DNA from: Rickettsiales bacterium
Lineage (GTDB): Bacteria > Pseudomonadota > Alphaproteobacteria > Methylaequorales > Methylaequoraceae
Assembly (NCBI GenBank): GCA_002691145.1
Contig: NZHE01000026.1
Span: 15,678 to 79,677, forward strand
Length of the DNA: 64,000 nucleotides
Direction of reading: 5' to 3'
Numbering within the stretch: position 1 is the stretch's first letter; the number at the start of each line of letters is the position of its first letter. Of the stretch, positions 1,584 to 24,823 are shown in pieces. The notes beneath the pieces were generated by a model. The model was given only the letters and a program-made list of their open reading frames with translations, did not search any database and was not told the DNA's origin. Made by a program: the position numbers and the translations under genes.

Positions 1584-1700
1584 TAATTAAATTCTTTAAA
1601 TAACTTTTGTATTGTTATGTTATATTTTAACGGTTAAAACAACAATTGATTAAAGTTTATAAAATAAATTTTAAATAACATCATTAATTAGGGTAAAAAA

Positions 1701-2162: not shown

Positions 2163-3779
2163 ATGAATTTAGAAAATCTTGATTGGTTAATTATAAGCGG
2201 ATATTTGATTTTTCTAATATTATTGTCTTTTAAATTATCAAAAAATCAAAAAAATTCAAAAGATTATTTTATTGCATCAAGAAAACAAAACTCAAAGAGT
2301 TTAGCAGTATCTATTTTAGCTACTCAATGTTCAACAAATAGTATTTTAGGGGCGCCAGCATTTGTGGCTTTCTCAATTGGTGGAGGATTGAGTTGGCTTC
2401 AGTATGAATTGGCAGTACCTTTATCGATGATTGCTATTATGATTTTCTTGTTCCCGATTTTTTATAAACTAAAGCTTATTTCAATATACGAATTTCTGGA
2501 AAAAAGATTTGATCTTAAAACTAAATTATTAATGAGTATGTTATTTCTTTTTATTCGTGTTTTTGCAACAGGCGTCATTGTTTATAGCGTATCCATAATC
2601 GTAGAGCTCATTTCAGGTTTAAGCTTTATTTATTCGGTTTTAATTTTAGGTATGATAACGATTATTTATGACGTCCTGGGTGGTATAAAAGCCATTATTT
2701 ACAGTGATATAATTCAAATGATAATTTTGACCTCAGTACTCTCTGGGATATTTCTTTATTTAATTAATATTTTTGGTGGATTTAGCTCAATGTTTGATTT
2801 TTTTCCTGCAGAAAGAAATATTAAAATTAATTTTTCTGATCATGGCTTTGGTGATGGAAATGAATTTGCTTTTTGGCCAATGCTCATAGGTGGTTTTTTT
2901 TTATATGTTTCTTATTACGGCTGTGATCAGAGTCAAATGCAAAAAGGGTTATGCGCTAAAAATCAAAATGAAGGTCAAAAAGTTTTTTTTTTAAATGGAA
3001 TTTTGAGATTTCCAATTGTACTTCTTTATTGCTTTATTGGAGTTGGCATAGGTTCTTATGCTGTTTTAGATTCAAGCTTTATTTCTAGTCTTCCTTTACA
3101 AAATGGAAAACCAAATTTTAATTTAGCAGTACCGGTTTTTCTTATGGAAAATTTACCAACGGGAATCTTAGGATTAACGCTTGTAGCTTTATTTTCTGCT
3201 GCAATGTCATCTTTAGATTCTGTACTCAATAGTTTGTCGGCAGTAACAATTGAGGATTTTATTAAAAGAAAAAAGGGTTTTAGTAGTTATTCAGAAAGAA
3301 AAATTCTTTTTATTTCCAGAGCTGTTACATTATTTTGGGGTATGTTAGCTATCGTTTTGGCTTTTTATGTTGAAAATGTTTCAAATAATGTGCTTATTGC
3401 TATTAATAAAATTGGTTCTCTAATTAATGGACCAATAGTTGGTGTTTTTTTATTAGGTATATTTACAAAAAAAATTAACGGTACAAGTGCCTGCATAGGA
3501 GTTGTAGGAGGATTCATATGTAATCTTTATTTTTGGATTTATGTTGAGAGTGTATCTTGGCTTTGGTGGAATGTAATAGGTTTAATCGTTACATTTAAGA
3601 TTGCAGTAATTTATTATTATTTTTTTTGTGGTAAAAAACTTTGCAATAATAATGTATGGTCATTAAATTCATTTAAGAAATTGGGCTTTAATAGTGAATG
3701 GGAAGTTAGGTATATTATTTTATTTGTTTGGTTTATCCTTATATTTATTTTAATTTATAGTCTCAAAAATATTTTTTAA
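2163..3779 (+). CDS. sodium:solute symporter (SSS) family transporter with extra C-terminal TM segments
   Basis: 538-aa polytopic protein; the N-terminal two thirds fit the SSS family (PutP/SglT-like) pattern. Confidence 0.7.
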   Translation: MNLENLDWLIISGYLIFLILLSFKLSKNQKNSKDYFIASRKQNSKSLAVSILATQCSTNSILGAPAFVAFSIGGGLSWLQYELAVPLSMIAIMIFLFPIFYKLKLISIYEFLEKRFDLKTKLLMSMLFLFIRVFATGVIVYSVSIIVELISGLSFIYSVLILGMITIIYDVLGGIKAIIYSDIIQMIILTSVLSGIFLYLINIFGGFSSMFDFFPAERNIKINFSDHGFGDGNEFAFWPMLIGGFFLYVSYYGCDQSQMQKGLCAKNQNEGQKVFFLNGILRFPIVLLYCFIGVGIGSYAVLDSSFISSLPLQNGKPNFNLAVPVFLMENLPTGILGLTLVALFSAAMSSLDSVLNSLSAVTIEDFIKRKKGFSSYSERKILFISRAVTLFWGMLAIVLAFYVENVSNNVLIAINKIGSLINGPIVGVFLLGIFTKKINGTSACIGVVGGFICNLYFWIYVESVSWLWWNVIGLIVTFKIAVIYYYFFCGKKLCNNNVWSLNSFKKLGFNSEWEVRYIILFVWFILIFILIYSLKNIF

Positions 3780-6697: not shown

Positions 6698-7627
6698 ATG
6701 GGCAAACTTGTAGATGGAAAGTGGATTACTAGTTCTGTGATAAATTCAGATATAAATGGTAATTATGATCGACTCCCAAGAACTTTCCTAAACTCTATTT
6801 CAGAAAAAAATAATAAATATAAACCTGAGACACAAAGATATCATTTATACGTCAGTTATGCTTGTCCTTGGGCTACTCGAACCCTTATTTATCGAAAATT
6901 AAAACAACTGGAAGAACACATAAGTGTAAGCGTGGTTCACCCAGATATGCTAGATAATGGTTGGATCTTTGATGAAACCTTTTTAGATTCAACCAAAGAT
7001 CATTTATATAATTTTAAATACCTCAAAGATTTATATTTAAAAGCAGATTCAAAAATAACAACAAGTGTAACAGTTCCTATACTTTGGGATAAAAAGACGG
7101 AAACAATTGTAAATAATGAGTCTTCTCAAATTATTCGTATATTTAATTCATCATTTAATAAATTAACAAATAATTATGATGACTATTATCCATTTGATAA
7201 AAAAAAAAAGATCGATCAGCTGAATAAAGAGATATATGAAAATGTTAACAACGGAGTTTATAAAAGTGGTTTTGCTGTAACTCAACAAGCTTATGATAAA
7301 GCAGTTACTAATTTATTCAAAACACTCGAAAAACTTGAAAAAATTCTTGAAAATTCAACTTATTTAATAGGTGATAAAATTTCTGAGGCTGATCTAAGAC
7401 TGGTTCCAACACTATTGAGATTTGATGTTGTTTACGTTTCACATTTTAGATGTAATATTAAACGTATAATTGATTTTAAAAACTTACATCGTTACATGCA
7501 GGAAATGCTTAAAATAAAAGCTGTTAAAGAAACATTTAAAATAAAACATATCAAAAGGCATTATTACTTCAGTCATAAAGAATTAAATCCATTAAGAATT
7601 ATACCCAAAGGACCTGAATTTTATTAA
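6698..7627 (+). CDS. yqjG: glutathionyl-hydroquinone reductase (Xi-class glutathione S-transferase, YqjG/ECM4 family)
   Basis: 309 aa; RYHLYVSYACPWATRTLIYRKLKQLEEHISVSVVHP matches the YqjG CPWA active-site region. Confidence 0.85.
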   Translation: MGKLVDGKWITSSVINSDINGNYDRLPRTFLNSISEKNNKYKPETQRYHLYVSYACPWATRTLIYRKLKQLEEHISVSVVHPDMLDNGWIFDETFLDSTKDHLYNFKYLKDLYLKADSKITTSVTVPILWDKKTETIVNNESSQIIRIFNSSFNKLTNNYDDYYPFDKKKKIDQLNKEIYENVNNGVYKSGFAVTQQAYDKAVTNLFKTLEKLEKILENSTYLIGDKISEADLRLVPTLLRFDVVYVSHFRCNIKRIIDFKNLHRYMQEMLKIKAVKETFKIKHIKRHYYFSHKELNPLRIIPKGPEFY

Positions 7628-7685: not shown

Positions 7686-7700
7686 TGTTATAATATAACA
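7686..7700. promoter_or_regulatory. Zur-box-like perfect palindrome TGTTATAATATAACA, 7 nt upstream of the 7708 start codon
   Basis: 7-1-7 perfect palindrome identical to the proteobacterial Zur consensus TGTTATAWTATAACA. Confidence 0.6.
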
Positions 7701-7707
7701 ATACATT

Positions 7708-8334
7708 ATGAATTATTTTAACACTAAAATTAATAGAAAAGTATTAGAATTTAAAAACGAAATTCAAAATTTAAAAATAATTGAAAGAGATATCCCACTT
7801 AATTCAGCAATATTTTTCGAAGAGTTATGTGAATCACTTCCTACAATTAAAGGTTTAGTAGATTACTCTAATGCGGAAAATAATATTCTTCAGCTTTTTG
7901 AAGATAAGGTAAGTATTAAAATTAAGAAAAATCCTTTCTTTAATCTATGGATTAAAGATATGAGTAAATTATGTCAGTTATTTTCTAAACTTTTAGAGGA
8001 AAATACAGTTTTTTTTTGCATTGGAACAAAAAGAGGTTGCAAGCGTTACCATGTAGACATGGTGCCATTCAGATTATTAGTAACTTATGCCGGACAAGGT
8101 ACTGAATTATTACCTAATCATGCAGCAGATCGTGAAGCATTTTTTAAGGGTAAATCTAATAAATTTATTGTTAAGGACAAATCAAAAATCAAACATATTA
8201 AAAATTGGGATATTGCTTTATTTCGGGGAGGAAAAAAAGGTATACTGCACAGAACCCCACATTCAGCATTAAAAAATAGAACATCAATTTTAATGAAAAT
8301 TGACTCCTCATCTTTTTTAGAGCAAATGATCTAG
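7708..8334 (+). CDS. conserved hypothetical protein (possibly DUF1826 family; tentative), predicted Zur-regulated
   Basis: 208-aa ORF with the conserved-looking block CKRYHVDMVPFRLLVTYAGQGTELLPNHAADREAFFKG; a Zur box overlaps its promoter. Confidence 0.45.
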   Translation: MNYFNTKINRKVLEFKNEIQNLKIIERDIPLNSAIFFEELCESLPTIKGLVDYSNAENNILQLFEDKVSIKIKKNPFFNLWIKDMSKLCQLFSKLLEENTVFFCIGTKRGCKRYHVDMVPFRLLVTYAGQGTELLPNHAADREAFFKGKSNKFIVKDKSKIKHIKNWDIALFRGGKKGILHRTPHSALKNRTSILMKIDSSSFLEQMI

Positions 8335-8629: not shown

Positions 8630-9013
8630 CTAAAAAAAAATATCATCAGCTAAAAAAGAAAAGAAAAATCCGACTAAGTAAATAACTGACGAAACAATAA
8701 TAATTTTCAAATTTATAATTTTTAGCCTGTTGCAGATCTTTGCTTGCTTAATATTAAATGGACAAGGTGCATTCTTAAATCGCCAAAATAAATAAATAGT
8801 AATTATTAATAAAAGTCCTGCTACAGCAAACACCTGAACTTTGTATTTAGATATAATAATCAACCATGGAAATATTGATATAAAACTTGCTAACACAGCA
8901 CCCATTCCAATAACAACAAGTAGGGATGGAATAGCACAACAAATTAAAGTACTAAAACTTGTGAATAAACTCAATACGGGTACAAGCATTTGTTTATATC
9001 TACTAATTCTCAC
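8630..9013 (-). CDS. MerT-like heavy-metal transport membrane protein
   Basis: 127 aa with 3 TM helices. Has the Cys-Cys pair in TM1 (TLICCAIPSLLVVIG) and a Cys-containing cytoplasmic loop (APCPFNIKQAKIC), matching MerT topology. Confidence 0.55.
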   Translation of the reverse strand: MRISRYKQMLVPVLSLFTSFSTLICCAIPSLLVVIGMGAVLASFISIFPWLIIISKYKVQVFAVAGLLLIITIYLFWRFKNAPCPFNIKQAKICNRLKIINLKIIIVSSVIYLVGFFFSFLADDIFF

Positions 9014-9314
9014 GAAACACCTCTACAACTTCGTAACCAGAATCTAAAATTAATTTTTTTATTGTTTCATCAGTTAAATTCTCACCCTCTTTTAAATTAA
9101 TAGTAATTAACATTTTTTCTAAATTTACATCAATACTTTTAACAGATTGTTTTCTTTTAAAAATTTTTTCAATTGACCTGGCACAAAAATCACAAACTAA
9201 TCCATTCACTGAAACGTACAAAATCTTATTGTCTTGTAAAACTTTCGATTCTAATTTTGTATTTGTTGTAAGTAAAAAAAGAATTAAAATTAAAATTGGT
9301 AAAAATAATTTCAT
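9003..9314 (-). CDS. periplasmic heavy-metal-associated (HMA) domain protein, MerP/CopZ-like
   Basis: 103 aa; signal peptide followed by an HMA fold carrying GLVCDFCA (a GMxCxxC-type metal-binding loop). Overlaps the MerT-like gene by 11 nt. Confidence 0.7.
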   Translation of the reverse strand: MKLFLPILILILFLLTTNTKLESKVLQDNKILYVSVNGLVCDFCARSIEKIFKRKQSVKSIDVNLEKMLITINLKEGENLTDETIKKLILDSGYEVVEVFREN

Positions 9315-9323
9315 TATAATCTC

Positions 9324-9968
9324 CTAAAATCTTTTAATAAAATTAAACAAAAAATCGTTGTGATAACTTAGTCCTATTTCAGCCAAATAATCACCTTTAA
9401 AGATTCTTAAGAAAGGTGTGAAAACTAAATTATCTGAAGAATTCGGCATATGATCAATCTGAAACATAAACCATGTATGAAGATCTCCATATTTACCAAT
9501 ATAAGGAGCTAGTCCGAATCGTAATTTTTGTTGATAAAATTTTTCTATCGATAAACTATTATTTATTCTATTTTCGTAACTCACAAAATAATTTCTATTT
9601 TCCCAATCAAATAAAAGTCCAGTAAAAAAACTTGGCAAGACTTTATTCTGAAAATGTTTATAATTACTTAGGGCCACACCAACTCCATTCCTAATATAAA
9701 AATTTGATTGTGATTTTGAAGTATTAATTCGATTAATCAGATAGTTAAATTGTGCACCATGAAATTGCCATTCTTTTTTTCTCCAATATTCTGCTCTATA
9801 GCCTAGAGAATATTTTACTGAAGGGCTCAAGTGAATGTGAACACTATTTTTGTTTACGTCATTCATCTGCATGATTGTCCAACCATTAGGATAAGAAATA
9901 GGTCTAGTTTTGACATCAGTTGTAAAAACTAAAAATAAAAAAGGTCCAAATATAAGATATTTAAACAT
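9324..9968 (-). CDS. secreted / putative outer-membrane protein (signal peptide, Tyr/aromatic-rich, beta-rich)
   Basis: 214 aa, N-terminal signal peptide, no internal TM helices; family not recognised. Confidence 0.3.
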   Translation of the reverse strand: MFKYLIFGPFLFLVFTTDVKTRPISYPNGWTIMQMNDVNKNSVHIHLSPSVKYSLGYRAEYWRKKEWQFHGAQFNYLINRINTSKSQSNFYIRNGVGVALSNYKHFQNKVLPSFFTGLLFDWENRNYFVSYENRINNSLSIEKFYQQKLRFGLAPYIGKYGDLHTWFMFQIDHMPNSSDNLVFTPFLRIFKGDYLAEIGLSYHNDFLFNFIKRF

Positions 9969-10028
9969 ATAATCTCCAAATAAAATTTACGAAAGAAAGA
10001 CATACGTCTCTCTATTTTTTAATAATTA

Positions 10029-10376
10029 TTAGGAGGTATATTTAGGAGGTGGATCTTTTAGTTCACTTATTAATGAATAATGATTAGAAATTAAAAAAAT
10101 TTCGAACGAATTACCAAAATTAATCATTGATAATATATGATTTTTATGAGTTAAAACATTTTTCAAATAACATTGGCAATCCAAACATAACTTTATATTA
10201 CTTTTATCAACGTTATTATTTTGATTATGGCAAGATTTATCATGAACGGAGATTTCTTGAACCTGACTTTGATGTTCTATTTTTTCTAAACAAAAATCAT
10301 TAATATTACTAAATGTAGTAGAATGAATAAAACATACTACAGAAAACATAACTAGTAAAAATTTAGGATAATTCAT
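10029..10376 (-). CDS. small secreted Cys/His-rich protein (putative periplasmic metal-binding)
   Basis: 115 aa; signal peptide, then CLEKIEHQ...HDKSCHNQ...CLDCQCY...HKNH. Confidence 0.3.
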   Translation of the reverse strand: MNYPKFLLVMFSVVCFIHSTTFSNINDFCLEKIEHQSQVQEISVHDKSCHNQNNNVDKSNIKLCLDCQCYLKNVLTHKNHILSMINFGNSFEIFLISNHYSLISELKDPPPKYTS

Positions 10377-10491
10377 ACTTATATATTTAATTTAAAACAA
10401 ATATTTTTTCAAGCGTTAAAATTAATGGCTCTACCAAAATTTTAATACCTTAATTATTTCCAAAAAAAGAAAAGTGTTGTGTTGACAAAAC

Positions 10492-10539
10492 TATATTTGT
10501 TATATTATAACACTACTATATTTGTTATATTATAACACT
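10492..10539. promoter_or_regulatory. two tandem Zur-box-like perfect palindromes (TGTTATATTATAACA at ~10498-10512 and ~10523-10537) inside a 23-bp direct repeat, in the divergent promoter between the TonB receptor and the MerP/MerT-like operon
   Basis: tatatttgttatattataacact repeated twice with a 25-bp period. Each core is a 7-1-7 perfect palindrome matching TGTTATAWTATAACA. A TTGACA -35-like hexamer lies at ~10481. Confidence 0.65.
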
Positions 10540-10567: not shown

Positions 10568-12529
10568 TTGAAAAATTCATTAAAATTCTTGACGATAATA
10601 TTTTTTGTAAACCAGGCTAGCGCTGAAAATCTTGAAACTATTTTTTCTGCACCTGATTTATTCGTTACTTCAAAAATTAAACCTTCATCAAATTTTGACG
10701 GTGATCGTGGAAACATACTTTTTGAAAATGATCAGCTTGAAAAAAAAGGACAATACTCAATTGGAGGTATATTGAATGATTTACCTGGTTTATCCTCTAC
10801 AAGTTTAGGTAACGCTTCTAGACCATTGATTAGAGGTATGTCAAATTCAAGGGTAAGAATTCTTCAAAATAATAGTTCTCTAAGTGACGTTTCTGAGTTT
10901 GCAGCAGATCACATAGTGGGTTATGACCCACTTTTGATTGATAAGATAGAGATTATTAAAGGTCCTGCAACATTGCTATATGGAAATAATGCTTTCGCAG
11001 GTGTTGTAAATATTATTAATCCTTTAATTGCTGTTGATACACCGATTATCGATCAAAGTGTTCAGGCTAGTTTTGGTTACAGCACTTCCGGTGGTGAACT
11101 TAAGTCGGCTCTTAAGGGTACCAAATCAATTGATAATTATACAGTTAGGGGGATGGGAAGTTTTTTAAGTGCTAGTTCTTATAATTTAGCAAATACATCA
11201 GCCAATCAAGGCAATTCTGCGAAGTCAAATTTTACAGGTGGATTTGGATTTACTTACAATAATGGTGAAAATTTTTTCGGGATTGCTGCAGACAAATTGG
11301 AAGCTGAATATAGTTTGCCGGGAGGTGAAGGTGTGGAAAATAGAACTACAATTAATCCTACAAGAAATACTTTTAATTTCAAAGCCGGTATTGCTTTAGA
11401 TTCTAGTTTATTTGAAAAAGTAAACTTAGAAGGAACTGTTTCAGAATATAGTCATGCGGAAAGAGTTCTAGCTGATAAACATAACATAGAGTTTTTCAAT
11501 GACTCTTACGAAATTAAAACCTCACTAAATCATAAATCCTTATTTTCAAATAACCTTGAGGGATTAATAGGGTTTCATTATCAGAATCTCGATCAAGGAG
11601 CTAAAGGAGATGAGGAAGTTCATTTAACAAAAACAAAAACAAATAGTTTTGGTTTATTTGTTTTGGAAAAATTCAAATATAATACTATTGAAATAGATCT
11701 TGGTGGTCGTCTTGAATCTGTGAACCTTAAAAATTCAAGCAATGAAAAAGGTTTCTTTCCAGTATCCTTTTCATCCACGGCAAGAAAAGAATTTATAGAA
11801 AATAATACTTCATTTATTGGTTTTGATTTCACCCAAAGAGCACCAAATCCAGTTGAACTATTTGCTAATGGGGCACATCATGCTGTTGAAAATTTTGAGA
11901 ATGGTGAATCTACCCTAACAACTGAAAGTTCTTACAATTTTTCATTAGGTAATATTTACAAAAATGATTTAGACAAGTTACAAGTTGAAACATATTTAAA
12001 TTATATTGATAATTTTATAGCTGCGGATAGAGACGGTACAACTGTAGCAGTCGAGGGTGAAGATTTTAACAATGTTATTCATGAACAATATAATGCAATG
12101 TTTACAGGCCTTGAGGTTTCTGGTCGATATAATTTTGCAAGTATAAATGAATTTAACATTCTAACAAATTTTATGTTTGACTTCATTAAAGGATATAAAA
12201 CATCTACTGATAAAGCTATTACAAGAGTTCCTCAATCTAAAGTTAATGCCGGTTTGCAGCTATTAGGAGATAGTTTAGATTCAAACTTAACTTATAATCA
12301 TTATTTTAGTAAAGGATTTCTTGGACCTTTTCAAACGCGCACAGGTGGACATTCTAGACTTGATTTTGATGTTACAAAAGATTTTTCCTATTCCACAATC
12401 TCTGGACATTTAGTATTTTCAGCTTTGAATTTATTAGATGTAGTTGGAAGAAGTCATTTGGAATCAAAAAAAGACACTGTACAACTTCCTGGCAGACATT
12501 TTAATTTTTTGTTAAAGGTTTTTTATTAA
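10568..12529 (+). CDS. TonB-dependent outer-membrane receptor (predicted Zur-regulated)
   Basis: 653 aa; signal peptide, N-terminal plug region and long beta-barrel, C-terminal aromatic residue. Zur boxes lie immediately upstream. Confidence 0.85.
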   Translation: MKNSLKFLTIIFFVNQASAENLETIFSAPDLFVTSKIKPSSNFDGDRGNILFENDQLEKKGQYSIGGILNDLPGLSSTSLGNASRPLIRGMSNSRVRILQNNSSLSDVSEFAADHIVGYDPLLIDKIEIIKGPATLLYGNNAFAGVVNIINPLIAVDTPIIDQSVQASFGYSTSGGELKSALKGTKSIDNYTVRGMGSFLSASSYNLANTSANQGNSAKSNFTGGFGFTYNNGENFFGIAADKLEAEYSLPGGEGVENRTTINPTRNTFNFKAGIALDSSLFEKVNLEGTVSEYSHAERVLADKHNIEFFNDSYEIKTSLNHKSLFSNNLEGLIGFHYQNLDQGAKGDEEVHLTKTKTNSFGLFVLEKFKYNTIEIDLGGRLESVNLKNSSNEKGFFPVSFSSTARKEFIENNTSFIGFDFTQRAPNPVELFANGAHHAVENFENGESTLTTESSYNFSLGNIYKNDLDKLQVETYLNYIDNFIAADRDGTTVAVEGEDFNNVIHEQYNAMFTGLEVSGRYNFASINEFNILTNFMFDFIKGYKTSTDKAITRVPQSKVNAGLQLLGDSLDSNLTYNHYFSKGFLGPFQTRTGGHSRLDFDVTKDFSYSTISGHLVFSALNLLDVVGRSHLESKKDTVQLPGRHFNFLLKVFY

Positions 12530-12538
12530 TATAAAAAA

Positions 12539-12907
12539 ATGTTTAAGTATTACTCTTCTTATGTTCTATTTTATTTTACTTTAACACATTTTTTGTGTTG
12601 TGGTATTCCCATTCTTTTAGGCACAATGTCTGTGTTTACAAGTTTATTAATATTTGAATCATTAGTAGTAAATTTTGAGTTTTTGGAAGCATTTGATATT
12701 TATTTCTTTACTCTTACATCTCTTCTTTTTTTATTAATAATATGTTTTGAAGTTTATAAAAAAAAATTAAAGACAAAGGTTGAAATTGATAACAGTGATA
12801 TCCAGAAATTAAATTTAACTAGAAGAAAAGCTAGATTAAACATAATTGCATCTTCAATTATCTATGTATTCAATGCATCAATATTTTTTTCAGAAAGAAT
12901 GTTTTGA
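12539..12907 (+). CDS. hypothetical membrane protein, probably co-transcribed with the TonB-dependent receptor
   Basis: 122 aa with 3 hydrophobic helices, 9 nt downstream of the receptor gene. Confidence 0.3.
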   Translation: MFKYYSSYVLFYFTLTHFLCCGIPILLGTMSVFTSLLIFESLVVNFEFLEAFDIYFFTLTSLLFLLIICFEVYKKKLKTKVEIDNSDIQKLNLTRRKARLNIIASSIIYVFNASIFFSERMF

Positions 12908-12963: not shown

Positions 12964-13554
12964 TTATTCATCTATAAACTTATTATTTTTAAAAATCCCT
13001 TTTTTTTTGTCACCATTTTTTTTTGTGAGTACCCCTCTACCGTCAAATAGATTGTTCTTAAACTCTCCTTCATATATATCGCCATTTGAAAATGTATAGG
13101 TGCCATTACCCTCTCTATTTCCAAATTTAAAGTGGCCAATGTACTTATCACCCACTTCAAATATTTGTGTACCAAAGCCGTGGGGTAAATCTTCAAAATA
13201 GTCTCCTTCATATTCTTCTCCATATGAAAATTTTGCCTTACCATATCCATGGAAAAGTCCATCTTTAAAACCACCTTCGTATCTATCACCGTTAGCAAAA
13301 TCAAAAACCCCGTTACCATGTTGAATACCATCTCTGAAGTCACCAACATATTTATTACCATTAACATATAAATAGGTCCCTTTTCCGTTGTATTTGTAAT
13401 CTTTAACTTCTCCAACATATTTTTCTCCATTGGAGTGGTTTATTACACCAAAACAGTGTTCAACAAAGTTACCATTACACTTAGGAAGACTGAATACGTA
13501 ATTTGTATTCGAAAAAAAAAATAAAAAGAATAAAACTATGATATTATTTCGCAT
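12964..13554 (-). CDS. secreted MORN-repeat protein
   Basis: 196 aa; signal peptide, then ~7 tandem YxGxxKxGxxHGxG MORN-type repeats. Confidence 0.75.
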   Translation of the reverse strand: MRNNIIVLFFLFFFSNTNYVFSLPKCNGNFVEHCFGVINHSNGEKYVGEVKDYKYNGKGTYLYVNGNKYVGDFRDGIQHGNGVFDFANGDRYEGGFKDGLFHGYGKAKFSYGEEYEGDYFEDLPHGFGTQIFEVGDKYIGHFKFGNREGNGTYTFSNGDIYEGEFKNNLFDGRGVLTKKNGDKKKGIFKNNKFIDE

Positions 13555-15697: not shown

Positions 15698-16123
15698 TTA
15701 TAAACATTTTCTGCATATACCTGTAATCTCTATGCTCCAACTTTTTTGTTCAAACATATTTTCTTGTAGAGTTTTTTTGAATATAGATGGCAGTTTTCCA
15801 AAATGAGATTCGGTAACAGCACCACAATCATTGCATATCATGAATTGAGTTCCTTTATGAGGCTTGTCAGATTCGCATATTGTATACGCATTTAAACTCT
15901 CAATTTTATGAATAAAGTTAATACCTCTCCAAAAGTCAATTGCTCTATATACTGTTGGTGGTTTTGGATTCTTTACGAGTTTTGACAGTTCAGATAAGAT
16001 ATCATAAGCTTTAATGGGTCTTTTGCTTGAAGAAACAATCTTCAGCACATTCAACCGAGACTTAGTAACCCTATGCTTATTTTTAATACAAAAATCTAAA
16101 ACTTTTTTTTCGAAAGATTTCAT
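15698..16123 (-). CDS. zur: Fur-family transcriptional regulator, probable Zur
   Basis: 141 aa; winged-helix N-terminus and two CxxC pairs (CNDCG...CRKC). Located in a cluster with Zur boxes, a COG0523 gene and metal transporters. Confidence 0.65.
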   Translation of the reverse strand: MKSFEKKVLDFCIKNKHRVTKSRLNVLKIVSSSKRPIKAYDILSELSKLVKNPKPPTVYRAIDFWRGINFIHKIESLNAYTICESDKPHKGTQFMICNDCGAVTESHFGKLPSIFKKTLQENMFEQKSWSIEITGICRKCL

Positions 16124-20918: not shown

Positions 20919-21452
20919 CTAGCCAAAAACTTGTTTAGCATCTTTAAGACGATAAAAAATGTTAAATTCATCATCTATAGGTACAAGCTCTAATTTGCCT
21001 TTAATGTTGATAGCATCATATGAAAAATTAACCGGCTTAATAGCATGAACCTCAATTAATAGATTTGAGGAAGTATGAGGATGATACGGACAAGTAAGTG
21101 GAAAGGGGCCCAGTAAAAATAATTTTTGTTTTTCATCTTGTTCTAAAGGAAACATGTAACCCTGGATTAAAACTTCTCTAGATTCTAAATTTTTAATTTT
21201 TTCTTTAAAAACTGGACGAAAACCAATCCAATCATTTCCATTATCGTCAGTAAAGGAATATTCATTCATTCCGGTTTCACTAAATGTTTTCCACGAAATA
21301 CCTCCAGTCGGTAAATCTATAAAATCATCAACAGCAGAAAGTAATTCATTTGGTTGCTCAAGATCACCATCGATTATTTCAAATGTATTTAATTCCTTAA
21401 AATAAAAGGAAATTAGGAAAATAATAAGTATTTTTAAATTAAAACTCTTCAT
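20919..21452 (-). CDS. DUF3299-like periplasmic protein, last gene of the ABC transporter operon
   Basis: 177 aa, signal peptide; the family call is from memory of the DUF3299 pattern and its usual pairing with MacB/FtsX-type ABC systems. Confidence 0.4.
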   Translation of the reverse strand: MKSFNLKILIIFLISFYFKELNTFEIIDGDLEQPNELLSAVDDFIDLPTGGISWKTFSETGMNEYSFTDDNGNDWIGFRPVFKEKIKNLESREVLIQGYMFPLEQDEKQKLFLLGPFPLTCPYHPHTSSNLLIEVHAIKPVNFSYDAINIKGKLELVPIDDEFNIFYRLKDAKQVFG

Positions 21453-21467
21453 TATAACTGAATGTAT

Positions 21468-22901
21468 TTATACATTTTTTGTAAGTTGATGTGCAACATT
21501 TATTTTTGATGCTTTCATTGCTGGAAAAATGGCTGCTAAATAACCTGATAAAATCACAGTAAAAACTATTAAAAAAAAGCTTAGATTAAACTGAAAATTT
21601 GCCTGAATTGTATTTAATGGAATAATGATTTTGGTTAGAACTTCAAAACCTACTATCCCAACTAAAATTCCAATAAAAAGACCAATTCCAACAATTGACA
21701 TTCCCTCTAAAATAATTATTTTAAAAATTCTTTTTCTTGAATAACCAATGGCTCTTAATATTGCAAGTTCTCCCATTCTATTATCCAAATTAGTAATTAA
21801 GCCAGCAAAAATACTTAAGATTGAAATTATAATTAAAATTGAAGAAAAGATGGTCAAACTTTTAGAGCTCAAACCAAAAATTGATGTCAGACGGGTAATC
21901 TCTAATGCTGGATTGGCAGCCTGCAACGAACTTTCTCTATTAATAAGACGAGGCAAATTAACATTTGCAATCGGAGATTTAGTGGTAATTAAAACTGCAG
22001 TAATTTCAGAGGTTTTTTTTTCAAAAGAATTTTTTACTATATTTTTGTCATTATTTATTTTATTTTCGATTAAATTATCTAAGTTTAGATTTTTGGTATT
22101 CTTTTTGTTATTTGAGCTTTCAACTTTATGATGCTCATGGTGGTGGTGAGTGTTTTTATTTTCTTCATGATTATGTTCTTCATGACTTGTTTTAATTTCA
22201 TGATGATCATGCTCTTTGGGTAAGGTATCAACTTTTATAGTACTATTTTTTTGTTCTGGTTTATTTCGATAATTTACATTACTCTCATTTATCTGAGGAT
22301 GATCATGAATGCTCAAAACTGAATCAACTGATGTTAAAAGCAATCTATCAATAACAGTGTTGGTTGGTTTTAAAATTCCTACGACCTTATATTTCTCATC
22401 TTCATGTTGGTTGTTGGAATCTAATAAACCATGAGAGCCGTAAAAGGTTTCTTCAATTTGAACATCAATGGAAGAACCTGCTATTATTTCAAAATTATTT
22501 TCCCATTTTCTTCCTTTAAATATTTCTGCATTATAGTGTTCGATATAATCAAATGTAGTACCAACAATTCTATATCCATTCCAATTATCTCCAAGTGCAA
22601 GTGGAATTGCATTCTCAATTTGAGGATGTTGAATATAGTTTTGAACTAGATCTAATGAAATATTTCCAGTTGGAATATCGACATGATAAACAGTGGATAA
22701 AACCATTTGAAGTGGACTTCCTTTGGCACCAACAACGATATCAATATTTTTTCCATCAGCTTTTAACCTATTGTTAAAATGATTATTTAACTGAGCTAAA
22801 ATTAGTGCTGTAAATACTCCAAAAACGATCAAAATTAAAGATAATGAAGTATTTAATAACCTATATTTTAATGAAAAAAATACAAACTTTAGATCACTCA
22901 T
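21468..22901 (-). CDS. ABC transporter permease, FtsX/MacB-type, with a histidine-rich periplasmic insertion
   Basis: 477 aa; N-terminal TM, large periplasmic domain containing KEHDHHEIKTSHEEHNHEENKNTHHHHEHHK, and a C-terminal 3-TM FtsX domain. Confidence 0.75.
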   Translation of the reverse strand: MSDLKFVFFSLKYRLLNTSLSLILIVFGVFTALILAQLNNHFNNRLKADGKNIDIVVGAKGSPLQMVLSTVYHVDIPTGNISLDLVQNYIQHPQIENAIPLALGDNWNGYRIVGTTFDYIEHYNAEIFKGRKWENNFEIIAGSSIDVQIEETFYGSHGLLDSNNQHEDEKYKVVGILKPTNTVIDRLLLTSVDSVLSIHDHPQINESNVNYRNKPEQKNSTIKVDTLPKEHDHHEIKTSHEEHNHEENKNTHHHHEHHKVESSNNKKNTKNLNLDNLIENKINNDKNIVKNSFEKKTSEITAVLITTKSPIANVNLPRLINRESSLQAANPALEITRLTSIFGLSSKSLTIFSSILIIISILSIFAGLITNLDNRMGELAILRAIGYSRKRIFKIIILEGMSIVGIGLFIGILVGIVGFEVLTKIIIPLNTIQANFQFNLSFFLIVFTVILSGYLAAIFPAMKASKINVAHQLTKNV

Positions 22902-23521
22902 TATTTAATTTCCAATACATTTTTAAAAAGTCCTTTGATTCTTTTATCATGAGTACAGACTATTAAAGTTGAATTTGTTAATTTTATTTGCTTAAAAATA
23001 AGTTTCATTACTTTTTCAGTATTTTTATCATCCAATCCTGAAGTAAGTTCATCAGCAAAAATTACTTTTGCTTCGTTTGCAACCCCTCTTGCAATAGCTA
23101 CCCTTTGTGCCTCACCAAAACTAAGATTTTTAACTAATTTTTTTTTTATATCTTTTAAACCTAGCTCTTTAATTAATAGATTAATTCTTTCCTTGTTAGT
23201 ATTATCTTGAACTAACATTATATTTTGTTCAATATTTAAGTGTTTAATTAAGTAAAAGTTTTGAAAAATAAATCCAAAGTTTTTTGAACGAATTTTGTCT
23301 AATTCATCTTCATTAAGTAATAACAAATTTTTACCTTCAAAAAAAATTTCTCCTGATGTTGGTTTTAATAAGCCACCCATCAAATTAATTAGAGTTGTCT
23401 TTCCACAACCAGAAGGTCCAAGGATAAGCAAGTGCTCATCTCTATTAACTTTAAAGTTTAATGGTCTTAAAATCTCTTGATTCTCAAATTTGTACTTAAC
23501 ATTGACTAAGTTAAAAAGCAT
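22901..23521 (-). CDS. ABC transporter ATP-binding protein (MacB/LolD-like)
   Basis: 206 aa; Walker A GPSGCGKTT, ABC signature LSFGEAQR (LSGGQ-like variant), and Walker B. Confidence 0.85.
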   Translation of the reverse strand: MLFNLVNVKYKFENQEILRPLNFKVNRDEHLLILGPSGCGKTTLINLMGGLLKPTSGEIFFEGKNLLLLNEDELDKIRSKNFGFIFQNFYLIKHLNIEQNIMLVQDNTNKERINLLIKELGLKDIKKKLVKNLSFGEAQRVAIARGVANEAKVIFADELTSGLDDKNTEKVMKLIFKQIKLTNSTLIVCTHDKRIKGLFKNVLEIK

Positions 23522-23650: not shown

Positions 23651-24823
23651 CTAAAAATTGTTTTCAAATACAAAAAAATAAGTATAGGAAACTAAAACAG
23701 CTGGAATCGCACTATAAAGTGTTGCTATGATCGCAGCTTTTGGAAGGATAGCAATAGCCGGAAAAAGTGCATCGCCATCATTAGATATAGCATTCCCAAT
23801 CTCAGCCGAAAAAGGAATAATACCATTTAAATAAAATGTAGTTACCAGGATTTGTGGTCCACAACCCGGAACAAATCCCATGAAAATAGCTATTAAAGGT
23901 ACAACTGGTTTCCAAATATCGAAGATAATTTTAATATCAAAATTTGAAAAAAAAATAAAACTTTCATAAAATAAAAATCCACAAACAACCCAAGTTGTTA
24001 CAAAGTTAGTTGTATCAATAGTCCTTGAGAGATACGAACGTGATTTTTCTGTTGAACATTGAAAATCGCTCAAAGGATTTAAAGTCCACATAAAAATGGA
24101 TACCACAGCGCCAAATGAGCCAATAGTATTTACAACACTGAAATCATTATACAAAAAGAAATAGTCATCAACATTTACCTGTATTAAATTTAAAATACCA
24201 ATAAGCAATCCGGGGAAAAAAACAATAATCCATAAAATATTAAATTTTGAAACAAATGTTTTTTTTATGCTTTCAAATTCAACATTTAATTTTTTTTTAT
24301 CCAATAAATAATCTCTTTTATGAAAAATATCAACTAAATACCCAGTTACTAAACCCGTTGAAAAAGCTATAATAAAAATAATCATACCTTGCATCGGTTG
24401 TTTTGCAAGCAATAGAAAGGCTGCATCACCCATAGTTGACGACAAGACTGCAACTAAAGAACCGAAGCTTAATCTACCTTGTATAAACTGGGTAACAACT
24501 ATAATCGCTCCACCACACCCAGGCAAAGAGCCCAAAAACGACGAAAATAGTACATGAAATTTTTTTGATTTTTTTAAAAAGTTTTTAATTTCAAAATTTG
24601 TAAGTGAGTCTAAACCCAAAAATATAAAAAGAGTAAAAGCAACAAATACTGAAACATTTAAATAAGCATCAATCAGTGAAGTTCTTACAACTGTCGCAAA
24701 GTCATTAGTTTGAAAAGCAAGAGAAAGAATTAGAAAACCTAAAATACATTTTTTTAGAAGTCTTCCCTCGTTCGCAACTAATATTTTCTTTTTTTTTATT
24801 ACACTTACAAATAAAGCATTCAT
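23651..24823 (-). CDS. polytopic membrane protein with internal two-fold repeat (GSLPGCGGAII / GFVPGCGPQIL motifs); putative permease
   Basis: 390 aa, ~10 TM helices; each half carries a PGCG motif inside a TM helix. Family not confidently assigned. Confidence 0.35.
   Translation of the reverse strand: MNALFVSVIKKKKILVANEGRLLKKCILGFLILSLAFQTNDFATVVRTSLIDAYLNVSVFVAFTLFIFLGLDSLTNFEIKNFLKKSKKFHVLFSSFLGSLPGCGGAIIVVTQFIQGRLSFGSLVAVLSSTMGDAAFLLLAKQPMQGMIIFIIAFSTGLVTGYLVDIFHKRDYLLDKKKLNVEFESIKKTFVSKFNILWIIVFFPGLLIGILNLIQVNVDDYFFLYNDFSVVNTIGSFGAVVSIFMWTLNPLSDFQCSTEKSRSYLSRTIDTTNFVTTWVVCGFLFYESFIFFSNFDIKIIFDIWKPVVPLIAIFMGFVPGCGPQILVTTFYLNGIIPFSAEIGNAISNDGDALFPAIAILPKAAIIATLYSAIPAVLVSYTYFFVFENNF

What the first reader, a model, noticed from the sequence alone, without database searches (positions are those of the whole stretch)
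8630..10376. Candidate new zinc-acquisition route: Zur-box-controlled operon with a MerP-like periplasmic HMA protein and a MerT-like inner-membrane transporter, paired with a TonB-dependent receptor
The minus-strand operon transcribed from the Zur-box promoter encodes four proteins. (1) A secreted 115-aa Cys/His-rich protein. (2) A secreted 214-aa aromatic-rich putative outer-membrane protein. (3) A periplasmic HMA-fold protein with a CDFC metal loop (MerP-like). (4) A 3-TM MerT-like membrane protein with the CC pair in TM1 and a Cys-containing cytoplasmic loop. MerT/MerP normally import Hg(II). Placing such a pair under Zur-type operators beside a Zur-controlled TonB receptor suggests import of Zn (or another thiophilic metal) through a Mer-like relay rather than ZnuABC. 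No znuABC genes are in the window.
Basis: inference. Interest (0 to 1): 0.65.

Follow-up and report, generated by a model that had tools for sequence, protein, structure and literature searches.

The report
Conserved Mer-like metal relay gene cassette
Four neighbouring genes in a marine bacterium encode an uncharacterised but widespread set of envelope proteins that probably hand a sulphur-loving metal ion from the outside to the cell interior, and the evidence points to copper handling at least as strongly as to the zinc uptake first proposed.

Summary
Four minus-strand genes (8630-10376) encode a secreted Cys/His-rich protein (A), a predicted 12-stranded outer-membrane barrel (B), a periplasmic HMA protein with a CDFC loop (C), and a 3-TM protein (D) carrying the four MerT-type cysteines. 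They face a ZnuD-like TonB receptor across two perfect Zur-type palindromes.

D is a remote MerT homologue (profile-profile probability 93.6%) but not a Pfam or NCBIfam MerT. A, B and D match no curated family.

B-C-D is collinear in 68 of 69 informative loci. These span Alpha-, Beta- and Gammaproteobacteria, Bdellovibrio, Verrucomicrobia and a Leptonemataceae spirochaete.

The zinc reading is only partly supported. Zur boxes keep a fixed distance from the receptor, a MerT-like paralogue, DUF1826 and an ABC gene. They lie upstream of the cassette only where it is the divergent neighbour (9/9 against 0/64).

In nine sister loci the same cassette, with the same CDFC motif, is driven by a CueR-type Cu(I) sensor through a MerR-style promoter. 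In three others it follows a CDF efflux gene.

Best reading: an autonomous Mer-like thiol relay for a soft metal, probably Cu(I)-class, placed beside and possibly co-repressed with a Zur regulon. It is a new variant of a known kind and moderately interesting.

The parts
10029..10376 (-). Gene A: secreted 115-aa Cys/His-rich protein. It has a signal peptide, a CH motif, a C-x2-C-x-C cluster and a C-terminal PPPK motif. It is the first gene of the cassette.
   Evidence: ORF. Hydrophobic segment 7-25. Alignment of 21-47 homologues shows invariant C49, P110 and P111, and near-invariant C64, C69 and K112. No Pfam family matched.
9324..9968 (-). Gene B: predicted 12-stranded outer-membrane beta-barrel (214 aa) with a C-terminal Phe and conserved Asp/Glu/His/Arg in the strands.
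   Evidence: AF2 model with pLDDT 86.4 and 12 strands. Foldseek PDB matches are intimin/invasin beta-domains, KdgM, NanC and autotransporter barrels. Only weak generic OMP Pfam hits and none to CopB. All 120 listed homologues are unnamed.
9003..9314 (-). Gene C: periplasmic HMA-fold metallochaperone (103 aa) with the loop NGLVCDFCA.
   Evidence: PF00403 E 4.4e-7. Best NCBIfam matches are CopZ-type (38 bits); MerP scores 16.5 bits. The CDFC motif is present in 69 of 82 cassette HMA proteins.
8630..9013 (-). Gene D: 127-aa, 3-TM MerT-superfamily membrane protein with C25-C26 in TM1 and C84/C94 in a positively charged loop.
   Evidence: Invariant C25, C26, C84 and C94 in 29 diverse homologues. 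hhalign against a MerT profile gives 93.6% probability, E 2e-7. AF2 pLDDT 83 with helices 5-34, 38-56, 58-79 and 88-126. Charge distribution.
10498..10512 (.). Zur-type palindrome 1 (TGTTATATTATAACA). It overlaps the inferred -10 (TATAAC) of the receptor promoter.
10523..10537. Zur-type palindrome 2, the second copy of a 25-nt tandem duplication (copies read by eye as 10490-10514 and 10515-10539; one search reports the same repeat in another register, 10485-10509 and 10510-10534).
10568..12529 (+). Divergent TonB-dependent receptor, ZnuD-like. It is the gene the Zur boxes are positioned for.
   Evidence: Plug domain PF07715. NF038289 ZnuD is the best match at 206 bits, below the 950 cut-off. 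The box-to-start distance is constant across 9 loci.
12539..12907 (+). Dp122: a paralogue of D (H..CCGxP in TM1) just downstream of the receptor. This copy has lost the loop cysteines that its orthologues keep.
   Evidence: hhalign of the Dp profile against the D profile gives 96.6% probability, E 6e-10. Alignment. The family has 84 clusters, all from marine samples.
7686..7700 (.). Third perfect Zur-type palindrome, ending 7 nt (8 bases) upstream of the DUF1826 start codon (box start 22 nt upstream).
7708..8334 (+). DUF1826 gene, convergent with D. DUF1826 is a recognised Zur-regulon family.
   Evidence: PF08856 E 6.8e-25. Literature: PMC2770081, PMC5786701, PMC9431628.
15698..16123 (-). Fur-family regulator, the candidate Zur that would bind the palindromes.
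   Evidence: PF01475 E 4.7e-12. NF008646 Zur scores 98 bits against 36 for Fur, but is below the 167 cut-off.

Best explanation
The four genes form an autonomous, widely conserved envelope module. A is a secreted Cys/His-rich protein, B a small 12-stranded outer-membrane barrel, C a periplasmic CopZ/MerP-like HMA protein with an almost invariant CDFC loop, and D a MerT-superfamily 3-TM protein with a vicinal Cys pair in TM1 and a Cys pair in the cytoplasmic loop.

The inferred mechanism runs as follows. A thiophilic metal ion crosses the outer membrane through B. It is captured by the cysteines of A and/or C in the periplasm. It then passes by thiol ligand exchange to the CC pair of D, and on to D's cytoplasmic Cys pair, as in the MerP-to-MerT relay. 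Net movement would be inward, down the free-ion gradient.

The metal is most likely Cu(I)-class. The same module, with the same binding motifs, is the adjacent target of CueR-type sensors in sister lineages. The physiological role is therefore more likely soft-metal homeostasis or defence, following Mer and PcoB logic, than dedicated zinc acquisition.

In this genome the module lies back to back with a Zur-controlled ZnuD-like receptor / MerT-like paralogue operon. It may share those Zur operators, but the operators are placed for the receptor.

Shown: gene content, motifs, homology, conservation, box positions and the regulator types in sister loci. Inferred: transport itself, its direction, the metal, and Zur control of this operon.
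For: - D family: four invariant cysteines at MerT-equivalent positions and profile-profile homology to MerT at 93.6%, E 2e-7. The N-terminus and the TM2-TM3 loop are rich in Lys/Arg, which places the loop in the cytoplasm.
- C: HMA fold with a signal peptide.
- B: confident model of a 12-stranded barrel.
- Conservation: B-C-D is collinear in 68/69 loci, with A-like proteins in 47 of them. There are 573 GTDB species hits and 888 clusters at 50% identity.
- Autonomy: neighbours are unrelated in L006, L095, L096 and L098.
- Copper link: nine loci have a divergent regulator that matches CueR TIGR02044 best, at 137-150 bits against 70-96 for the MerR, ZntR and CadR models. One of the three adjacent regulators scored (L045) reaches the curated cut-off. 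Their promoter is TTGACC-19 nt-TATATA around a CCTTAACGTTAGGG dyad and points at B.
- The CDFC loop is identical in the CueR-linked and the Zur-clade loci.
- Other excess-metal contexts: a ZntR/MerR-like regulator in the operon in L069; a CDF efflux gene as the first gene in L056, L099 and L100; a D-like::HMA fusion beside a helix-turn-helix regulator (family not determined) and a GDCCVxC protein in a Tn3 context on a Vibrio plasmid.
- Zur boxes track the receptor, Dp122, DUF1826 or ABC starts, not the cassette.
- Precedent for a 12-stranded copper channel in a defence system: PcoB (PMC9210255).
Against: - No experiment and no transcript data exist for any member.
- The conserved Asp inside CDFC, and the carboxylate/His-rich conserved positions of B, would suit a divalent ion (Zn, Cd) as well as or better than Cu(I).
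- CueR-linked loci lack gene A, so the A-containing form could have a different role.
- Within the marine clade, the cassette stays next to Zur-box genes through three different arrangements. In the compact 120-nt intergenic regions a single box could repress both promoters, so Zur control here is quite possible.
- A CDF exporter as the first gene in some operons fits outward rather than inward flux.
- Only the 80 best of 573 loci were examined.
- Zur motifs of distant taxa were not modelled.
Confidence: 0.5

Rival explanations
1. The cassette is a Zur-repressed, ZnuABC-independent zinc acquisition route: zinc is captured by A/C in the periplasm and imported by the MerT-like D, working alongside the Zur-controlled TonB receptor.
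For: - Two perfect Zur boxes lie in the shared divergent control region. A plausible minus-strand promoter (TTGAAA-16-TATAAC) also overlaps them.
- A Zur-like gene is in the window.
- In 12 loci of this clade the cassette stays adjacent to Zur-box genes through three arrangements: receptor-divergent, Dp-ABC-divergent, and convergent with DUF1826.
- A paralogue of D sits inside the Zur-controlled receptor operon.
- The Asp in CDFC recalls the Asp/Cys/Cys zinc site of ZntA-type HMA domains (from my own knowledge).
- I found no znuABC in the window.
Against: - Box-to-start distance is constant for the receptor, Dp or DUF1826 genes but variable (84-168 nt) for A.
- 0 of 64 cassettes without such a neighbour have a box.
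- In L004 the cassette is separated from the boxes.
- Cassettes with identical binding motifs are under CueR-type activators.
- A CDF efflux gene leads the operon in L056, L099 and L100.
Confidence: 0.22
2. An outward detoxification route. Metal exported to the periplasm, by a CDF or P-type pump, is picked up by C/A and leaves through barrel B. D serves as a membrane anchor or donor rather than an importer.
For: - Control by metal-excess sensors (CueR-type, ZntR/MerR-like).
- CDF as the first gene of the operon in three loci.
- In Caulobacter the 12-stranded PcoB is described as a copper efflux channel (PMC12509749).
Against: - D is the most conserved and diagnostic member, and it is homologous to an importer.
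- The module has no energy-coupling component.
- Most loci have no adjacent pump.
Confidence: 0.13
3. A thiol-disulfide (redox) relay rather than a metal transporter. D would shuttle reducing equivalents across the membrane to keep the cysteines of A and C reduced, in the manner of CcdA or DsbD.
For: D has two invariant Cys pairs, one in the membrane and one cytoplasmic, and its partners have CxxC or Cys clusters.
Against: - D is homologous to MerT, not to CcdA or DsbD.
- C has an HMA fold, not a thioredoxin fold.
- The contexts are metal-sensor regulators.
- A dedicated outer-membrane barrel has no role in this model.
Confidence: 0.07
4. A genuine mercury resistance (mer) uptake pair.
For: MerT homology and the HMA partner. 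On plasmids, D-like fusions occur with GDCCVxC proteins, which also accompany merT/merP.
Against: - The window has no merA, no MerR-family ORF and no second HMA-domain ORF.
- MerT and MerP curated models are not met.
- The adjacent regulators are CueR-type, not Hg-MerR.
- The genes are chromosomal in streamlined marine oligotrophs.
Confidence: 0.03

Closest known systems
MerT/MerP mercuric ion uptake relay of mer operons (Tn501/Tn21)
   Same: - A small 3-TM inner-membrane protein with a vicinal Cys pair in TM1 and a Cys pair in the TM2-TM3 cytoplasmic loop.
- A signal-peptide HMA protein with CxxC as the periplasmic partner.
- Adjacent genes.
- In sister loci, a divergent MerR-family sensor with a 19-nt-spacer promoter, the same layout as merR/merTPA.
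- Detectable profile-profile homology.
   Different: - D fails the Pfam and NCBIfam MerT models, and C fails MerP and scores nearer CopZ.
- The gene order is reversed (HMA before the membrane protein).
- There is no merA.
- Two extra conserved partners exist, barrel B and Cys-rich A.
- The sensor is CueR-type or absent.
- The genes are chromosomal and widespread in non-resistant oligotrophs.
Pco/Cop copper systems with the outer-membrane barrel PcoB/CopB
   Same: A 12-stranded outer-membrane barrel with conserved acidic residues, encoded beside periplasmic copper-binding proteins and, in sister loci, controlled by a copper sensor (PMC9210255).
   Different: - No sequence match to CopB PF05275, and PcoB is not among the top Foldseek hits.
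- No multicopper oxidase.
- The inner-membrane partner is MerT-like, not PcoD/CopD.
Zur-regulated ZnuD-type TonB receptors with accessory genes (Neisseria/Acinetobacter ZnuD; Pseudomonas PA4063-4066; DUF1826/ZigA clusters)
   Same: A ZnuD-like receptor, DUF1826, and ABC/FtsX/DUF3299 genes preceded by Zur-type palindromes in this clade (PMC2770081, PMC9431628).
   Different: The A-D cassette is not part of any described Zur regulon. MerT-like proteins (D, Dp122) have not been reported in one: in the searches made here I found no paper describing this.
MerTP / MerT-CopZ fusion proteins (NCBIfam NF033556, NF045683)
   Same: A MerT-like membrane domain combined with an HMA domain. A D-like::HMA fusion occurs on Vibrio plasmids.
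   Different: Here the two are separate genes, with the HMA gene first. Scores against the fusion models are far below their cut-offs (23 against 180 bits).

Membership tests
MerT (Pfam PF02411 / NCBIfam MerT) | Significant match to the curated family model | tested here: not met
   The window protein has no hit at E<=0.1 in Pfam or NCBIfam. Only 3 of 29 homologues touch PF02411, best E 0.0054, which is below the gathering score.
MerT (Pfam PF02411 / NCBIfam MerT) | Remote homology detectable by profile-profile comparison | tested here: met
   hhalign of A1 (29 sequences) against A5 (4 annotated MerT) gives probability 93.6%, E 2e-7, over 96 aligned columns. Against a single MerT sequence the probability is only 12.7%.
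MerT (Pfam PF02411 / NCBIfam MerT) | Vicinal Cys pair in TM1 and Cys pair in the cytoplasmic TM2-TM3 loop; three TM helices, N-terminus inside | tested here: met
   C25, C26, C84 and C94 are invariant. The AF2 helices and the Lys/Arg distribution place the loop in the cytoplasm.
MerT (Pfam PF02411 / NCBIfam MerT) | Operon context with merR and merA; Hg(II) transport | tested here: not met
   The 64-kb window has no MerR-family ORF and no second HMA-domain ORF. No merA-like protein was recognised in the ORF translations I read by eye or among the recurrent neighbour families of the 80 loci. Hg transport itself cannot be tested here.
MerP (NCBIfam TIGR02052) | Periplasmic HMA protein reaching the MerP equivalog score | tested here: not met
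   The HMA fold is met (PF00403, 30.6 bits against 24.8). MerP scores 16.5 bits against a 92.55 cut-off. CopZ-type models score higher (38 bits) but are also below their cut-offs.
Zur regulon member | Zur operator positioned on the gene's own promoter, conserved across orthologues | tested here: inconclusive
   Boxes lie 122-161 nt from the start of A and overlap a possible minus-strand promoter. Across loci, however, they keep a fixed distance from the receptor, Dp or DUF1826 genes, and they are absent from 64/64 cassettes that lack such a neighbour.
Zur regulon member | A Zur regulator encoded in the genome | tested here: met
   The Fur-family gene at 15698-16123 matches Zur best (98 bits against 36 for Fur), though below the equivalog cut-off of 167.
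ZnuD zinc-piracy TonB receptor (NF038289), for the neighbouring gene | Score at or above the curated cut-off | tested here: not met
   206 bits against a 950 cut-off. ZnuD is still the best-matching family, at E 1.2e-60.
PcoB/CopB outer-membrane copper channel (PF05275) | Sequence match to CopB; 12-stranded barrel | tested here: not met
   No CopB hit for any of 29 B homologues at E<=10. The 12-strand barrel architecture is shared.
CueR regulon (in sister loci only) | Adjacent CueR-type regulator and a MerR-type promoter with a 19-20 nt spacer | tested here: met
   TIGR02044 scores 136.9-149.8 bits for the three adjacent regulators that were scanned (L046, L041, L045; cut-off 147.4, reached by L045). 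The other six of the nine adjacent regulators were assigned by sequence similarity and the shared CPG[DN]xKPxCPI loop. The promoter is TTGACC-19 nt-TATATA with a dyad and points at B. This is not met in this window, which has no MerR-family ORF.

The most novel reading that the evidence does not exclude
In streamlined marine Alphaproteobacteria, MerT-superfamily proteins (D, and its paralogue Dp122 downstream of the ZnuD-like receptor) are the inner-membrane step of a Zur-controlled, ZnuABC-independent zinc import pathway. The substrate could be free zinc or a zinc-thiol complex. The A-B-C-D cassette would be its porin/chaperone branch and the TonB receptor its high-affinity branch. That would be a Mer-type thiol relay re-used for acquiring a nutrient metal.
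Probability: 0.2. Interest if true: 0.8.

Novelty: new variant of a known kind. Interest (0 to 1): 0.55.

Why it matters
Proteins A, B and D match no curated family, and every homologue that carries a source name in the hit lists is called 'hypothetical'. Yet the cassette occurs in at least 573 GTDB species and in about 900 clusters at 50% identity. Its carriers include abundant marine oligotrophs, Micavibrio, Bdellovibrio, Polynucleobacter, Alteromonas and Thiothrix.

If it is a Mer-like thiol relay with its own outer-membrane channel, Mer-type transport would not be confined to mobile mercury resistance. It would also be a common chromosomal mechanism for handling copper-class or zinc-class metals.

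The cassette also gives a testable candidate for how bacteria that lack ZnuABC or classical copper systems move soft metals across the inner membrane. That bears on trace-metal limitation and copper toxicity in the surface ocean. Separately, the Zur-controlled receptor / MerT-like paralogue / DUF1826 operon adds unreported members to the Zur regulon.

Tried and rejected
- Direct Pfam and NCBIfam scans of A, B and D gave nothing useful.
- A profile search of D against PDB sequences found only chance hits to membrane proteins.
- Foldseek of the D model against the PDB gave nothing below E 2.5.
- The consensus promoter scan found fewer sites than in shuffles in this AT-rich DNA, so it could not assign promoters.
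- The tandem palindrome TAAGTT-N7-AACTTA upstream of the L004 cassette is not enriched in the window.
- A search for shared GC-containing palindromes upstream of cassettes in other taxa found none in common.
- An exact-sequence look-up of the receptor found no contig, and the look-up of D found only contigs of about 1 kb. I therefore could not search the rest of this genome for znuABC, copA or cueR.
- Literature searches for a MerT-like protein in Zur or CueR regulons, and for SAR11 zinc systems, found no description of this cassette.
- Rfam found no RNA element between 7500 and 13600.
- The 1.84-billion-protein representative search listed only close family members, so it did not bridge to MerT.
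- I considered and rejected a PcoB/CopB assignment for B and genuine mer resistance for the pair. The reasons are in the membership tests.
Full report
**1. What is in the sequence**

The window is low-GC DNA (about 27%). An identical copy of gene D is recorded from a marine MAG labelled 'Rickettsiales bacterium TMED127' and from Tara Oceans contigs.

On the minus strand between 8630 and 10376 lie four tightly spaced ORFs, with gaps of 60 nt and 9 nt and then an 11-nt overlap.

- **A (10029-10376, 115 aa).** It has an N-terminal hydrophobic segment and five Cys and seven His in the mature part.
- **B (9324-9968, 214 aa).** It has no family match.
- **C (9003-9314, 103 aa).** It has an N-terminal hydrophobic segment and an HMA domain (PF00403, E 4.4e-7) with the loop NGLVCDFCA.
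- **D (8630-9013, 127 aa).** It has CC at residues 25/26 and Cys 84 and 94 in a Lys/Arg-rich loop.

Across a 191-nt intergenic region lies a TonB-dependent receptor (10568-12529). Its best NCBIfam match is ZnuD, at 206 bits, which is far below the 950-bit equivalog cut-off.

The intergenic region holds two perfect TGTTATAnTATAACA palindromes at 10498-10512 and 10523-10537, created by a 25-nt tandem duplication. A third perfect copy at 7686-7700 sits just upstream of a DUF1826 gene (7708-8334). Three perfect matches compare with none in 100 shuffles.

**2.

- Directly after the receptor comes a 122-aa ORF (12539-12907) with H..CCGIP in its first hydrophobic helix. A profile of this protein and seven orthologues aligns to the D family with 96.6% probability, E 6e-10, so it is a paralogue of D. 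I call it Dp122. The window's copy has lost the loop cysteines (KC..D..CC....C) that most of its aligned orthologues keep.
- The window also encodes a Fur-family regulator (15698-16123). It matches Zur far better than Fur (98 against 36 bits), although below the curated cut-off of 167.
- There is a DUF3299/FtsX/ABC gene set (20919-23521) and an ArsP_2 family exporter (23651-24823).
- DUF1826 is a recognised Zur-regulon family (PMC2770081, PMC5786701, PMC9431628).
- I found no ZnuABC-like genes in the window. Some ORFs were scanned against profiles and the rest I read by eye from their translations.
- No MerR-family ORF and no second HMA-domain ORF are present.

**3. Is D MerT-like?**

- By curated models, no. 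The window protein matches neither Pfam nor NCBIfam MerT. Only 3 of 29 diverse homologues touch PF02411, and they do so at noise level.
- By profile-profile comparison, yes. I then built a four-sequence MerT profile from annotated plasmid genes. hhalign of the D profile against it gives 93.6% probability, E 2e-7, over 96 columns. The TM1 CC pair aligns to MerT C24/C25 and the loop cysteines align to the MerT loop.
- The four cysteines are invariant in the D family.
- The AF2 model (pLDDT 83) and the charge distribution fit the MerT topology, with the N-terminus and the Cys loop in the cytoplasm.

D is a member of the MerT superfamily but not of the MerT family proper. Dp122 is one step further out: it aligns to MerT at only 3% probability.

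**4. The other proteins**

- **B.** The model is a 12-stranded beta-barrel (pLDDT 86.4), and the protein ends in Phe. Its nearest solved folds are 12-stranded outer-membrane barrels: intimin/invasin beta-domains, KdgM, NanC and autotransporter barrels, with TM-scores of 0.4-0.58. Sequence hits are only weak generic OMP families, and there is none to CopB/PcoB.
- **C.** It scores closer to CopZ-type models (38 bits) than to MerP (16.5 bits), but below every cut-off.
- **A.** It evolves fast. It keeps a CH motif, a C-x(2-4)-C-x-C cluster and a C-terminal PPK motif, and it matches no Pfam family.
- **Naming.** Every listed homologue of B, D and Dp122 that carries a source name is called 'hypothetical'; most carry no name at all. 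RefSeq also calls the Variovorax copies 'hypothetical protein'.

**5. Conservation**

A degenerate-pattern scan of one genome per GTDB species found 573 stretches that encode a D relative, and the best 80 were fetched. The exhaustive profile search found 888 clusters at 50% identity.

In the fetched loci, B, C and D are collinear in 68 of the 69 loci that have enough upstream sequence. An A-like gene precedes them in 47.

The carriers are marine and freshwater Alphaproteobacteria, Micavibrio, Alteromonas, Thiothrix, Pseudomonadales, Polynucleobacter, Bdellovibrio, Verrucomicrobia and a Leptonemataceae spirochaete.

Neighbouring genes are otherwise unrelated. The cassette is an autonomous module.

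**6. Do the Zur boxes belong to the cassette?**

- Across all loci, boxes with at most one mismatch lie a short distance upstream of the receptor (about 45-52 nt from the nearest box, up to 70 nt from a second one), Dp122 (35 nt), DUF1826 (22-55 nt) or the ABC ATPase (18 nt). Their distance to A varies from 84 to 168 nt.
- A box lies within 300 nt upstream of the cassette in 9 of 9 loci where the receptor is the divergent neighbour, and in 0 of 64 others (Fisher p 1e-11). Two caveats apply. The nine loci belong to one clade, and Zur motifs of distant taxa were not modelled.
- In L004, a 1.46-Mb genome of the same clade, the receptor keeps two boxes. The cassette lies at the other end of the receptor operon, has none, and carries a different tandem palindrome instead.
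- In the window, a TTGACA (10482-10487), an 18-nt spacer and TATAAC inside box 1 form a good receptor promoter, with box 2 just downstream. This is read directly.
- A minus-strand TTGAAA-16-TATAAC promoter overlapping box 2 can also be drawn. A similar TTGATA-16-TATAAC exists in the L013-type loci. Its -35 element is not conserved in L010, L019 or L031.

Shared Zur control is therefore possible; I put it near 50%. The boxes are positioned primarily for the receptor.

**7. Evidence that the clade-level link to the Zur regulon is nevertheless real**

In a second architecture (L056, L099, L100) there is no receptor. Dp122 heads an operon Dp-ABC-FtsX-DUF3299 that is preceded by a Zur box with 1-2 mismatches. 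The cassette, now led by a CDF (Cation_efflux) gene, is again the divergent neighbour.

DUF1826 with its own box is again nearby. Adjacency of the cassette to Zur-box genes thus survives three arrangements. This is why I do not dismiss the zinc reading.

**8. Evidence pointing to copper and to metal-excess control**

- In nine low-GC marine alphaproteobacterial loci (L041, L042, L043, L045, L046, L048, L049, L055, L072), B-C-D lacks gene A and lies 36-82 nt from a divergent MerR-family gene.
- Three of these nine regulators were scanned against NCBIfam, and the other six were assigned by sequence similarity. The three scanned match CueR TIGR02044 best, at 137-150 bits against 70-96 for the MerR, ZntR and CadR models. 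L045 exceeds the curated cut-off of 147.4.
- All nine carry the loop CPG[DN]xKPxCPI and a Ser at the position which, from my knowledge of E. coli CueR, distinguishes monovalent-ion sensors.
- The intergenic DNA reads TTGACC, then 19 nt, then TATATA, around a CCTTAACGTTAGGG dyad, and it points at B. This is the signature layout of a MerR-type activated promoter and mirrors merR/merTPA.
- The HMA loop NG[LM]VCDFCA is identical in the CueR-linked, Zur-clade and most other loci (69 of 82). The likely substrate is therefore the same.
- Other contexts also suggest metal stress: a ZntR/MerR-like regulator inside the operon in L069, and ECF sigma factors near the Bdellovibrio copies. On a Vibrio plasmid, a D-like::HMA fusion sits beside a helix-turn-helix regulator of undetermined family and a GDCCVxC protein in a Tn3 context. 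GDCCVxC proteins also accompany merT/merP on other plasmids.

**9. Mechanism**

The best-supported model is a Mer-like ligand-exchange relay:

1. The ion passes through barrel B.
2. It is captured by periplasmic thiols in C, and in A where A is present.
3. It is handed to the TM1 Cys pair of D.
4. It is released to D's cytoplasmic Cys pair.

The module has no energy-coupling component. Net flux should therefore follow the free-ion gradient, which means inward.

Induction by a metal-excess sensor is compatible with this. Mer works the same way, importing mercury for cytoplasmic handling. PcoB, a 12-stranded copper channel in a defence operon, is a further precedent (PMC9210255), although in Caulobacter PcoB is described as an efflux channel (PMC12509749).

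The metal is not settled:

- The CueR linkage and the CopZ-like scores of C favour Cu(I).
- The conserved Asp in CDFC, the carboxylate/His-rich conserved positions of B, the CDF partner and the Zur neighbourhood would also suit Zn or Cd.

Everything beyond gene content, motifs, homology, synteny and operator positions is inference.

**10. Novelty and verdict**

The searches made here found no paper describing this cassette. A, B and D have no curated family.

It is a new variant of a known kind: Mer-type thiol relay transport, extended by a dedicated outer-membrane barrel and a Cys-rich secreted partner, encoded on chromosomes, widespread, and wired to CueR-type or Zur-type contexts.

The specific claim of a Zur-controlled zinc acquisition route is only partly supported for these four genes. 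It fits the neighbouring receptor-Dp122-DUF1826 operon better.

My probabilities are:

| Reading | Probability |
|---|---|
| Soft-metal (Cu(I)-class) relay | 0.50 |
| Zinc acquisition | 0.22 |
| Outward detoxification route | 0.13 |
| Redox relay | 0.07 |
| Genuine mercury resistance | 0.03 |

Interest: 0.55.

Noticed in passing
window 12539-12907 (+): A 122-aa paralogue of the MerT-like protein lies directly downstream of the ZnuD-like receptor, inside the Zur-box operon. This copy has lost the loop cysteines (KC..D..CC....C) that its orthologues keep. The family is small (84 clusters) and found only in marine samples.
   Followed up: yes
window 7686-7700 and 7708-8334 (+): A third perfect Zur-type palindrome ends 8 bases before the start codon of a DUF1826 gene. 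DUF1826 also carries a box in L056, L099 and L100. Its sequence has an HxD...H pattern (YHVD ... ILHRTP) that suggests a metal-dependent cupin or oxygenase-like fold.
   Followed up: partly
window 15698-16123 (-): A Fur-family regulator whose best match is Zur (98 bits against 36 for Fur) lies 5 kb from the palindromes. It is the likely protein that binds them.
   Followed up: partly
window 20919-23521 (-) and 23651-24823 (-): A DUF3299 / FtsX permease / ABC ATPase set lies next to an ArsP_2 '10TM heavy-metal exporter' gene. From memory, the ABC set resembles the Zur-regulated PA4064-4066 genes of Pseudomonas. In L059, L056, L099 and L100 the orthologous ABC operon is preceded by a Zur-type box, but the window copy has no recognisable box.
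   Followed up: partly
window 10490-10539: The two Zur boxes arise from a tandem duplication of a 25-nt unit (ACTATATTTGTTATATTATAACACT x2 as I read it). The repeat finder reports the same repeat in another register, with the copies 92% identical. Most sister loci have a single box, and L004 has two non-identical boxes 21 nt apart.
   Followed up: partly
window 12964-13554 (-) and 6698-7627 (+): A secreted MORN-repeat protein and a Xi-class-like glutathione transferase (CPWA motif) recur beside the receptor operon in 8 and 3 loci respectively. In L059 a Zur-type box lies 150 nt upstream of the MORN gene.
   Followed up: no
L004 6595-6650: Upstream of the L004 cassette there are two tandem 26-nt repeats, each holding the inverted repeat TAAGTT-N7-AACTTA. 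This may be an operator for an unknown regulator. The motif is not enriched in the window.
   Followed up: partly
L041 2640-2700: Upstream of the L041 DUF1826 gene is a 7-1-7 palindrome, TGCAATAATATTGCA. It has the same architecture as the Zur box but a different core, so it may be a variant Fur-family operator.
   Followed up: no
L010 10453-11817: In one locus an SBP56 (selenium-binding protein / methanethiol oxidase family) gene follows D directly. From memory, that family includes a copper-dependent enzyme.
   Followed up: no
L094 5254-7389 (Vibrio diabolicus plasmid NZ_CP069194.1): A D-like::HMA fusion protein lies beside a helix-turn-helix regulator and a GDCCVxC (seleno)protein inside a Tn3-type element. 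GDCCVxC proteins also accompany merT/merP on the Pseudomonas and Salinibacter plasmids (L089, L091).
   Followed up: partly
window 1618-1632: A two-mismatch Zur-like site (TGTTATATTTTAACG) lies about 70 nt upstream of a small membrane protein (1701-2057, with a weak MntP-like hit) and a sodium:solute symporter-like gene (2163-3779; judged by eye from the translation, not profile-scanned). It may be a chance match.
   Followed up: partly
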